Assembly: GCF_003334315.1 (NCBI RefSeq)
Contig: NZ_QOWR01000089.1
From: Escherichia coli
GTDB lineage: Bacteria > Pseudomonadota > Gammaproteobacteria > Enterobacterales > Enterobacteriaceae
Direction: 5' to 3' (one strand)
Length of the DNA stretch: 10,264 nucleotides
In this document: in pieces, positions 8,049 to 8,316 of the stretch
How positions within the stretch are numbered: position 1 is the stretch's first letter
Layout: every line of letters starts with the position of its first letter
Translations under genes and position numbers: made by a program
The notes under the pieces: model-generated
Seen by the model: the letters and a program-made list of their open reading frames with translations, nothing else
What the model was told of the DNA's origin: nothing
Database searches by the model: none

Positions 8049-8316
8049 ATAAATAGGCCGTCCCCTCAAGAGTAAACACCATAGTATTTAAAACCATCAC
8101 ACGAAAAATTCAGAAGCATTACGAAATATGAATTTACAAACAATAGTGGCATAAATGTTAACCATGTTAATTTACGTAAAGTTTTACGTTGCAACATTAA
8201 AGCCTCATTTCAATCATCATGATAAATATAAAATTAATATATATTTATGCCGTAAATACCAATATACTTAGCAAACTATGTGATTTCCATTTCGATTGAT
8301 TTAGTGTTATTGACGT

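What the first reader, a model, noticed from the sequence alone, without database searches (positions are those of the whole stretch)
8155..8190. Cluster of short repeats and a 10-bp palindrome upstream of yqeI
ATGTTAA-cc-ATGTTAA direct repeat (8155-8170) is immediately followed by the perfect palindrome TTTACGTAAA (8171-8180) and a second TTTTACGT (8183-8190), ~130-160 bp upstream of yqeI. Such density of symmetric elements suggests an operator, possibly for YqeH or for YqeI autoregulation.
Basis: seen in the sequence. Interest (0 to 1): 0.4.

Follow-up and report, generated by a model that had tools for sequence, protein, structure and literature searches.

The report
Conserved GTTAA repeat array upstream of yqeI
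Upstream of the E. coli regulator gene yqeI, the short ATGTTAA repeats are a conserved, regularly spaced array that looks like a real binding site for a still unidentified regulator, whereas the neighbouring 10-bp palindrome is a chance feature that is not conserved.

Summary
The window is the left end of the E. coli ETT2 island (yqeF, yqeG, yqeH, yqeI, yqeJ).

Taken together they are weak evidence. A 10-bp palindrome turns up in 55% of shuffles of this AT-rich spacer.

Comparing five Escherichia lineages splits the cluster:
- **TGTTAA hexamers (8156-61, 8165-70):** 10 of 12 positions are invariant, while the spacers vary (0 of 9; p = 2e-4). A third copy lies 9 bp upstream in most lineages, giving a (N)GTTAA array with a fixed 9-bp period.
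- **Palindrome TTTACGTAAA:** 0 of 10 positions are invariant, and it is already broken in O157 and other E. coli strains.
- **TTTTAnGTTGCA (8182-94):** conserved at a fixed distance, but its ACGT core is not.

The array lies between the yqeH terminator and an invariant AT-rich block carrying -10-like hexamers with no -35. The spacer is a published H-NS-bound "promoter island".

My best reading is an upstream activator or anti-silencer site for the yqeIJ promoter. The binder is unproven. YqeH is slightly favoured over YqeI. ArcA-P is a weaker rival: the half-sites are a perfect match and yqeIJ is 3.8-fold down in ΔarcA, but the spacing is wrong and no ChIP peak was reported.

This is an ordinary kind of feature and only modestly interesting.

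The parts
8147..8152 (+). Upstream hexamer copy 1 of the array. It is degenerate in E. coli (TGGCAT) and reads TGTTAA, GGTTAA, CGTTAC or CGTTAT in other Escherichia lineages.
   Evidence: Alignment A2 and L033. It always lies exactly 9 bp before copy 2.
8156..8161 (+).
   Evidence: G, T, A and A are invariant in five lineages. There is no SNP among 9 diverse E. coli.
8165..8170 (+).
   Evidence: 6 of 6 positions are invariant in all 13 aligned sequences.
8171..8181 (.). An 11-nt spacer of fixed length but free sequence. In this strain it happens to read as the palindrome TTTACGTAAA.
   Evidence: 0 of 10 palindrome positions are invariant and there are no indels in any lineage. It is polymorphic within E. 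coli. P(chance) = 0.55.
8182..8194 (+). Second conserved element, TTTTAnGTTGCA.
   Evidence: 9 of 13 positions are invariant. The C of ACGT varies (C, A, T, G).
8144..8161 (+). ArcA-box-like 18-mer TAGTGGCATAAATGTTAA, found in E. coli only.
   Evidence: It scores 14.0 bits with a PWM built from 115 published ArcA boxes. P(shuffle reaching 14 or more) = 0.07, and it is absent from the other lineages.
8218..8290 (+). Nearly invariant AT-rich block, the presumed core promoter or early leader of yqeIJ. It has conserved -10-like hexamers TAAAAT (8229-34), TATATT (8240-45) and TATACT (8263-68) and no -35 match above 3 of 6.
   Evidence: The TSS has not been determined.
8018..8050 (+). Intrinsic terminator of yqeH: hairpin ATACGGGCA / TGTCCGTAT followed by a T-run.
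   Evidence: RNA fold -17.4 kcal/mol, z = -4.5. The stem covaries (GC, GU, AU), and the loop is deleted in E. whittamii with the stem kept.
7352..7984 (+). yqeH, an EcpR_N + GerE (LuxR-type) regulator.
   Evidence: Annotation; Pfam on orthologues; 92-95% amino-acid identity across lineages.
8317..9126 (+). yqeI, a ToxR/VtrA/CadC-like membrane wHTH regulator. yqeJ follows at 9119-9601.

Best explanation
The functional core of the finding is a tandem array of two to three (N)GTTAA hexamers with a fixed 9-bp period (8147-8170). A second conserved box, TTTTAnGTTGCA, follows exactly 11 nt downstream.

I read this as an upstream binding module for a sequence-specific transcription factor. That factor would activate, or relieve H-NS/StpA silencing of, the -35-less yqeIJ promoter lying in the invariant AT-rich block 50-100 bp further on.

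The binder is most likely one of the two regulators encoded on either side. I slightly favour YqeH (EcpR-like, GerE-type HTH) binding head-to-tail to the hexamers; YqeI autoregulation comes second.

What is shown and what is inferred:
- Shown: the half-sites and their phasing are conserved.
- Shown: a yqeH terminator lies upstream, so yqeIJ needs its own promoter.
- Shown: the region is bound by H-NS.
- Inferred: that a protein binds the array, which protein it is, and the direction of the effect.

The palindrome plays no part in this.
For: - Hexamer positions are 10 of 12 invariant against 0 of 9 for the spacers across five Escherichia lineages (Fisher p = 2.2e-4). This holds in a spacer where only 32% of columns are invariant and the 100 bp upstream are essentially unalignable.
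- The 9-bp phasing and the 11-nt distance to the second box carry no indel in any lineage. A third copy at -9 bp is present in E1V33, L033, E. marmotae and Marseille-Q3837.
- There are no SNPs in the hexamers among 9 diverse E. coli, against 6 SNP positions in 8162-8193.
- GTTAA-N4-GTTAA occurs at one other place, inside the xdhA coding region flanking ETT2, in a 38-kb O157 stretch covering the island.
- The yqeH terminator is conserved with covariation. The downstream -10-like hexamers are conserved without a -35, as expected for an activator-dependent promoter.
- The spacer is one of 78 "promoter islands" bound by H-NS in all ChIP-chip studies (PMC3661553). The region was used as an H-NS hairpin-forming (CHIN) fragment (PMC12460168).
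- For YqeH: it is 92-95% identical across the lineages that keep the array, while YqeI is 64-74%. EcpR_N regulators recur next to yqeIJ-like cassettes. A 7-2-7 layout, 9 bp centre to centre, is the spacing known for GerE-type HTH dimers such as NarL (from memory).
- For YqeI: its DNA-binding domain and recognition helix NTLYQNISI(I/V)RRG are invariant out to Salmonella MarT. ToxR-family proteins bind direct repeats in AT-rich DNA (from memory). A TGTTAA lies 149-174 bp before the start codon in homologues from Citrobacter and the Kosakonia/Enterobacter EA-1 group.
Against: - There is no binding, TSS or reporter data for this promoter. The papers available report no EMSA for YqeH or YqeI.
- A 9-bp period does not fit the 10-11 bp of OmpR/PhoB/ToxR-type wHTH proteins.
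- GerE-type 7-2-7 sites are normally inverted, not direct.
- The only EcpR motif I recall (TTCCT-N17-TTCCT) is unrelated and absent from the window.
- No GTTAA array was found upstream of Salmonella marT or around misL, upstream of yqeH, or at other ETT2 promoters. So there is no regulon-level support.
- The footprint rests on five related lineages, in effect four outgroup clades.
- yqeIJ expression depends on ArcA, which points to a different factor.
Confidence: 0.5

Rival explanations
1. ArcA-P site. Phosphorylated ArcA binds the TGTTAA half-sites, in particular the 18-bp box at 8144-8161, under anaerobiosis. It activates yqeIJ by antagonising H-NS, as proposed for gadE-mdtEF.
For: - Each ATGTTAA scores 10.5 bits with a half-site matrix built from published ArcA boxes.
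- TAGTGGCATAAATGTTAA scores 14.0 bits, against 9.6-21.5 (median 15.7) for the 115 real boxes.
- yqeIJ falls from log2 8.5 to 6.6, a 3.8-fold drop, in the ΔarcA strain (p = 3e-5), while yqeH is not listed as changed (Park 2013, Table S5).
- Weaker ArcA-like boxes (10.6-13.4 bits) overlap the TGTTAA at about -150 to -175 in Citrobacter and Enterobacter EA-1 homologues.
Against: - The yqeH-yqeI spacer is not named in any of the 13 supplementary tables of that study, including the table of 176 ChIP-chip/ChIP-seq regions.
- The two good half-sites are 9 bp apart. ArcA needs 11 bp, and even 12 bp abolished binding at putP.
- The 11-bp box is specific to E. coli. The best scores in E1V33, E. whittamii and L033 are below 10 bits, although they keep the 9-bp array.
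- A 14-bit hit arises in 7% of shuffled spacers and is below the authors' 15-bit scan cut-off.
- Many acid-resistance and AppY-regulon operons fall by a similar factor in ΔarcA, so the effect may be indirect.
Confidence: 0.15
2. The array is bound by some other, unlinked transcription factor not considered here, such as a response regulator or nucleoid-associated anti-silencer.
For: The conservation pattern demands a sequence-specific reader but does not name it. The 9-bp direct-repeat geometry fits none of the candidate families cleanly. Nac overproduction induces yqeH and yqeJ, with ChIP peaks nearby.
Against: No known motif was matched. The array occurs at no other promoter in the 38-kb ETT2 stretch, which is more typical of a dedicated local regulator.
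Confidence: 0.12
3. There is no specific protein site. The repeats are chance features of AT-rich, H-NS-coated DNA, retained by shared ancestry or by general constraints on curvature or H-NS nucleation.
For: The spacer is 30% GC. Short repeats and palindromes are common. The whole spacer is a "promoter island" dense in promoter-like signals. Only a handful of related lineages were compared.
Against: Alternating invariant hexamers and free spacers, a preserved 9-bp register and a preserved 11-nt gap are not what neutral decay or a compositional constraint gives (p = 2e-4). The flanking 100 bp has diverged beyond alignment over the same period.
Confidence: 0.18
4. One reading: the palindrome TTTACGTAAA, together with the ACGT repeats, is a dyad-symmetric operator.
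For: It is a perfect 10-bp dyad in this strain and in 2381 of the 3496 complete genomes that match the 61-bp stretch around it.
Against: 0 of 10 positions are invariant across lineages. The dyad is broken by SNPs in O157, EC93, SCU-106 and CM2. It is expected by chance in 55% of shuffles.
Confidence: 0.03

Closest known systems
ArcA box (direct repeats of TGTTAA; Park et al. 2013, PMC3798270)
   Same: The half-site sequence is identical. The repeats are direct, there can be more than two, the context is AT-rich, and the downstream operon depends on ArcA.
   Different: The period is 9 bp rather than the strict 11 (or 22) bp. No ChIP peak was reported. An 11-bp box exists only in E. coli and is marginal at 14 bits.
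ToxR/TcpP/CadC-type upstream sites (membrane-bound wHTH activators acting on H-NS-silenced promoters)
   Same: These are direct-repeat half-sites in AT-rich DNA far upstream of a weak promoter. A second site lies closer to the promoter, the setting is H-NS antagonism, and the neighbouring gene encodes such a regulator together with its lipocalin co-component (PMC9214523). The cadBA regulatory region also contains ATGTTTA and GTGTTAA.
   Different: Known family repeats have 10-11-bp periods (from memory). No site is known for YqeI, MarT or GrvA. Autoregulation is not typical of the family.
NarL-type 7-2-7 sites and EcpR/MatA anti-H-NS activation (GerE/LuxR-type HTH)
   Same: Heptamer-2-heptamer spacing, 9 bp centre to centre. 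The adjacent gene yqeH encodes an EcpR_N + GerE protein. EcpR counteracts H-NS at its own operon.
   Different: NarL 7-2-7 heptamers are inverted, whereas these are direct. The EcpR motif I recall (TTCCT-N17-TTCCT) is unrelated.
Promoter islands (Panyukov and Ozoline 2013, PMC3661553)
   Same: This very spacer is listed (2986202_358, yqeH/yqeI) as H-NS-bound and associated with horizontally acquired genes. It holds many overlapping -10-like hexamers.
   Different: That concept describes a composition-driven density of promoter-like signals. It does not predict discrete invariant hexamers at a fixed phase.

Membership tests
ArcA-P binding site | Half-sites matching the ArcA direct-repeat element (TGTTAA-like) | tested here: met
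   Both ATGTTAA copies score 10.5 bits with the single-repeat PWM.
ArcA-P binding site | Two half-sites 11 bp centre to centre, giving an 18-bp box of about 15 bits | tested here: inconclusive
   The conserved pair is 9 bp apart, so it does not meet this. An alternative box at 8144-8161 scores 14.0 bits. That score arises in 7% of shuffles, is below the authors' 15-bit cut-off and is not conserved.
ArcA-P binding site | In vivo ArcA occupancy (ChIP) | tested here: not met
   yqeH and yqeI, and the coordinate prefixes searched (2984, 2985, 29861-29863), are absent from all 13 supplementary tables, including the table of 176 binding regions. Only the expression table lists yqeIJ. This is published data, not a new experiment.
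ArcA-P binding site | ArcA-dependent expression of the downstream operon | tested here: met
   yqeIJ is 3.8-fold lower in ΔarcA, p = 3.4e-5 (Table S5). The effect could be direct or indirect.
OmpR/PhoB/ToxR-type wHTH tandem site (YqeI autoregulation) | Direct repeats on the same helical face, period 10-11 bp | tested here: not met
   The repeats are direct, but the period is 9 bp in every lineage.
OmpR/PhoB/ToxR-type wHTH tandem site (YqeI autoregulation) | The same motif upstream of orthologues and homologues that share the recognition helix | tested here: inconclusive
   The recognition helix is invariant out to MarT. A single TGTTAA lies at -149 to -174 in 3 of about 10 other clades. No 9-bp array was found outside Escherichia, and none in SPI-3.
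OmpR/PhoB/ToxR-type wHTH tandem site (YqeI autoregulation) | Binding by the protein | not testable with these tools
   There is no EMSA or ChIP for YqeI in the literature that could be read.
GerE/LuxR-type site (YqeH) | Paired heptamers with 2-bp spacer (7-2-7) | tested here: met
   ATGTTAA-cc-ATGTTAA. The 9-bp register is conserved.
GerE/LuxR-type site (YqeH) | Inverted orientation of the heptamers | tested here: not met
   The copies are direct. Only the inner TTAA is self-complementary.
GerE/LuxR-type site (YqeH) | Binding by, or regulation by, YqeH | not testable with these tools
   The ΔyqeH APEC paper and its supplements do not mention yqeI or yqeJ.
Dyad-symmetric operator | A palindrome maintained by selection | tested here: not met
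   0 of 10 positions are invariant, it is polymorphic within E. coli, and chance P = 0.55.
H-NS-silenced promoter island | AT-rich, horizontally acquired, H-NS-bound, with many promoter-like signals | tested here: met
   30% GC. Listed as a promoter island with H-NS binding in all studies. Several conserved -10-like hexamers.
Known RNA family or sRNA in the spacer | An Rfam match | tested here: not met
   The only hit is a 16-bit chance match (E = 0.15) against a 100-bit threshold.

The most novel reading that the evidence does not exclude
The 9-bp-phased (N)GTTAA array is the first recognisable DNA motif for one of two uncharacterised regulator families: the EcpR-like YqeH, or the YqeI/MarT/GrvA co-component transmembrane regulators. 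It would bind in an unusual head-to-tail register. It would also be the point where anaerobic ArcA signalling enters the ETT2 regulatory cascade. That would define a yqeH to yqeIJ, or autoregulatory, switch that lifts H-NS silencing.
Probability: 0.25. Interest if true: 0.5.

Novelty: new member of a known kind. Interest (0 to 1): 0.3.

Why it matters
YqeI/YqeJ is the only ToxR/VtrA-type co-component sensor in E. coli K-12, and it affects motility, adhesion and serum resistance in avian pathogenic strains. Nothing is known about how it is switched on or what DNA it, or its neighbour YqeH, recognises.

A short, conserved, easily mutated array gives a concrete handle for EMSA and reporter work, and a candidate motif to search for targets. 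It may also explain why yqeIJ needs ArcA under anaerobiosis.

It is still a routine promoter-dissection lead rather than a new kind of biology.

Tried and rejected
- **Consensus promoter and terminator scan of 7900-8400.** It found nothing at the element and missed the yqeH terminator because the loop is 10 nt.
- **Rfam.** No family matched.
- **ArcA.** I built a PWM from Table S3. The box is marginal, specific to E. coli and has no ChIP support.
- **Same array elsewhere.** One other copy in the 38-kb O157 ETT2 stretch, inside xdhA. None upstream of yqeH, none in Salmonella SPI-3 including the marT and misL regions, and no 9-bp arrays upstream of Citrobacter, Kosakonia, Trabulsiella, Enterobacter, Kluyvera or Yokenella homologues.
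- **TTCCT-N17-TTCCT** (EcpR motif, recalled from memory). Absent.
- **Motifs checked by eye and rejected for poor or non-conserved matches:** sigma-54 (TGGCAT-N5-TTAAC lacks the -12 GC and is not conserved), minus-strand promoter use of TTAACA as a -35 (no -10, and the flank is unconserved), and CRP, FNR, IHF, Fis, PhoP, PmrA, OmpR, RcsAB and marbox.
- **The 43-aa minus-strand ORF at 8066-8197.** It lies in the unalignable stretch, so it is not coding.
- **Experimental TSS, or yqeI expression in ΔyqeH or ΔyqeI.** None was retrievable, and the cap on papers was reached.

Full report
**Where the window is.** It matches E. coli chromosomes at 93-100% identity. The 332-bp spacer around the finding is present in 3733 of 5426 complete genomes and is never annotated. 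Annotation of an identical strain gives yqeF(-), yqeG(+), yqeH(+) at 7352-7984, yqeI(+) at 8317-9126, yqeJ(+) at 9119-9601 and yqeK(-). This is the left end of the ETT2 island. GC content drops to 30% across the spacer.

**What the neighbouring genes encode.**
- YqeH carries Pfam EcpR_N plus a weak GerE match.
- YqeI is a Trans_reg_C wHTH protein.
- YqeI and the lipocalin-like YqeJ form a VtrA/VtrC-ToxR/ToxS-type co-component system, orthologous to Salmonella MarT/FidL (PMC9214523).

**Checking the observation.** All the elements exist: ATGTTAA at 8155-61 and 8164-70, TTTACGTAAA at 8171-80, and TTTTACGT at 8182-89, one base left of the stated coordinates.

Dinucleotide-preserving shuffles of the spacer give these frequencies:

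| Feature | Fraction of shuffles |
|---|---|
| 10-bp palindrome | 55% |
| 7-bp or longer close direct repeat | 16% |
| Both within 40 bp | 1.8% |

The window contains 13 palindromes and 9 direct repeats of this kind. On its own the cluster is weak evidence.

**Phylogenetic footprint.** I aligned three sets of sequence:
- the spacer from 9 E. coli strains chosen across the identity range;
- orthologous loci from Escherichia sp. E1V33 and E. whittamii;
- E. marmotae, Escherichia sp. Marseille-Q3837 and E. albertii, reached through YqeI homologues.

Only 32% of spacer columns are invariant across the five lineages, and 8050-8145 is essentially unalignable. Against that background:
1. TGTTAA at 8165-70 is invariant in all 13 sequences, and G, T, A and A of 8157-61 are invariant.
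2. The three 3-nt spacers around the hexamers have no invariant position. That is 10 of 12 against 0 of 9, Fisher p = 2.2e-4.
3. A third copy sits exactly 9 bp upstream: TGTTAA (E1V33), GGTTAA (L033), CGTTAC (E. marmotae) and CGTTAT (Marseille-Q3837). It is degenerate in E. coli (TGGCAT), E. whittamii and E. albertii.
4. The 11 nt that carry the palindrome keep their length but not one base. The dyad is broken within E. coli itself by G8176A in O157, EC93 and SCU-106, and by A8174G in CM2.
5. TTTTAnGTTGCA (8182-94) is conserved at 9 of 13 positions, but the C of ACGT is not.

Within E. coli there are six SNP positions in 8162-8193 and none in the hexamers. The conserved object is therefore a (N)GTTAA array with a 9-bp period plus a second box at a fixed distance, not a cluster of symmetric elements.

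**Context of the array.**
- Upstream, 8018-8045 plus a T-run is a hairpin terminator for yqeH (-17.4 kcal/mol, z = -4.5). One stem pair reads GC in most E. coli, GU in this window and AU in E. albertii. E. whittamii has lost the loop but kept the stem. yqeIJ therefore needs its own promoter.
- Downstream, 8218-8290 is almost invariant and AT-rich. It contains three -10-like hexamers conserved in all lineages (TAAAAT at 8229, TATATT at 8240, TATACT at 8263), and none has a -35 match better than 3 of 6. That is the usual look of an activator-dependent promoter.
- The spacer is one of the 78 published "promoter islands". It is flagged as horizontally acquired and H-NS-bound in every ChIP-chip data set (PMC3661553).
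- The yqeG-ygeI segment was used as an H-NS/StpA hairpin-forming (CHIN) fragment (PMC12460168).
- No TSS could be retrieved. If one of the three -10s is used, the array centre lies about 80-110 bp upstream of the start.

**Who binds: ArcA.** TGTTAA is the ArcA direct-repeat consensus. I built a PWM from 115 of the 128 published ArcA boxes.
- Points for: each ATGTTAA scores 10.5 bits as a half-site, and TAGTGGCATAAATGTTAA (8144-61) scores 14.0 bits against 9.6-21.5 for real boxes. In the same study yqeIJ drops from log2 8.5 to 6.6 in ΔarcA under anaerobiosis (Table S5).
- Points against: the spacer is not named in any of that study's supplementary tables, including the 176 ChIP regions. ArcA needs 11-bp spacing, and 12 bp already failed at putP. 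A score of 14 bits arises in 7% of shuffled spacers. The box is absent from the lineages that nevertheless keep the 9-bp array.

ArcA may act here in E. coli, or indirectly. It does not explain what is conserved.

**Who binds: YqeI.** Its DNA-binding domain, including the helix NTLYQNISI(I/V)RRG, is invariant out to MarT. The linker and periplasmic domain diverge. Overall identity is 64-74% within Escherichia.

A TGTTAA lies 149-174 bp before the start codon in Citrobacter and in the Kosakonia oryzendophytica/Enterobacter EA-1 group. It also does so in Salmonella, but only if counted from the aligned Met rather than the annotated start. That is more than the background frequency predicts, roughly p = 6e-4 to 5e-3 by my own hand estimate from the counts, with a window chosen post hoc.

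There are no 9-bp arrays outside Escherichia and none in SPI-3. A 9-bp period is also unlike the 10-11 bp of this protein class.

**Who binds: YqeH.**
- It is 92-95% identical across the same lineages and lies immediately upstream in all of them.
- It belongs to the EcpR family, whose founder counteracts H-NS.
- Genes for EcpR_N proteins recur beside yqeIJ-like cassettes in Salmonella SPI-3 and Kluyvera. The Kosakonia cowanii cassette follows an ecp operon.
- A 7-2-7 arrangement is the geometry of GerE-type dimers such as NarL, although in the inverted orientation (from memory).

No experiment links YqeH to yqeI.

**Other checks.**
- GTTAA-N4-GTTAA occurs at one other place in 38 kb of O157 ETT2, inside xdhA, and there is no related array upstream of yqeH. 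So there is no regulon signal.
- Rfam finds nothing.

**Verdict.**

| Reading | Probability |
|---|---|
| Hexamer array is a genuine transcription-factor site | about 0.7-0.75 |
| YqeH binds it | about 0.3 |
| YqeI binds it | about 0.2 |
| ArcA-P binds it | about 0.15 |
| Another factor binds it | about 0.12 |
| No specific function | about 0.18 |
| Palindrome is an operator | about 0.03 |

This is a new, uncharacterised instance of a familiar kind of element, and its interest is modest.

Noticed in passing
window 7035-7060: A perfect palindrome with 11-bp arms, CATCTTAAATA-AGAC-TATTTAAGATG, lies about 290 bp upstream of the yqeH start. It is conserved in all five Escherichia lineages, with only minor changes in E1V33 and E. 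albertii. It is a far better dyad-operator candidate than the one in the finding.
   Followed up: partly
window 7292-7343: A near-consensus promoter for yqeH: TTGACA, a 17-bp spacer, TG-n-AATTAT, then the ribosome-binding site AGGGAGG. It is almost invariant across lineages. It agrees with a sigma-S holoenzyme SELEX peak in the yqeG-yqeH spacer (PMC5493296).
   Followed up: partly
window 8018-8050 and 6903-6937: Hairpin terminators after yqeH and yqeG. The yqeH stem shows GC, GU and AU covariation, and the loop is deleted in E. whittamii. The consensus terminator scan missed the yqeH hairpin.
   Followed up: yes
window 5469-5486 (+), 5641-5658 (+), 5810-5827 (-): ArcA-PWM hits of 14.0, 11.5 and 15.0 bits in and next to the yqeF-yqeG divergent spacer. 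yqeF is 3.1-fold derepressed in ΔarcA, but no ChIP region is listed there.
   Followed up: partly
window 8268-8279: TTAGCAAACTAT matches 10 of 12 positions of the SlyA/RovA consensus TTAGCAAGCTAA, recalled from memory. It lies inside the conserved promoter block, but the G is not conserved in other lineages.
   Followed up: no
window 8218-8290: A 70-bp AT-rich block is almost invariant between species whose YqeI proteins are only 64-74% identical. It is more conserved than the coding sequence it precedes.
   Followed up: partly
yqeH, yqeI and yqeJ in L002, L009, L021, L024, L027 and L033: Evolutionary rates differ sharply between adjacent genes: YqeH is 92-95% identical, YqeI 64-74% and YqeJ 54-70%. 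YqeI divergence is confined to the linker and periplasmic sensor domain, and its DNA-binding domain is nearly invariant.
   Followed up: partly
L039 12409-13026; L036 3072-3683; L038 1-1209: Genes for EcpR_N-domain regulators (YqeH-like) recur beside MarT/FidL- or YqeI/J-like cassettes and autotransporters in Salmonella SPI-3 and Kluyvera. In Kosakonia cowanii the cassette follows an ecp pilus operon.
   Followed up: no
window about 7770 (in yqeH) and about 9160 (in yqeJ), by published coordinates: Nac overproduction gives ChIP-seq peaks inside yqeH and yqeJ, with 4.5-fold and 7.3-fold induction (PMC5217608, Table 1).
   Followed up: no
L003, L004, L006, L010 at -172 to -174; L007 and L012 at -154 and -149 from the start codon: A TGTTAA is paired with a TGTCAA- or TGTGTT-like second copy at variable spacing (13-20 bp) upstream of yqeI homologues in Citrobacter and Kosakonia/Enterobacter. 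This may be an ancestral half-site of this promoter family.
   Followed up: partly
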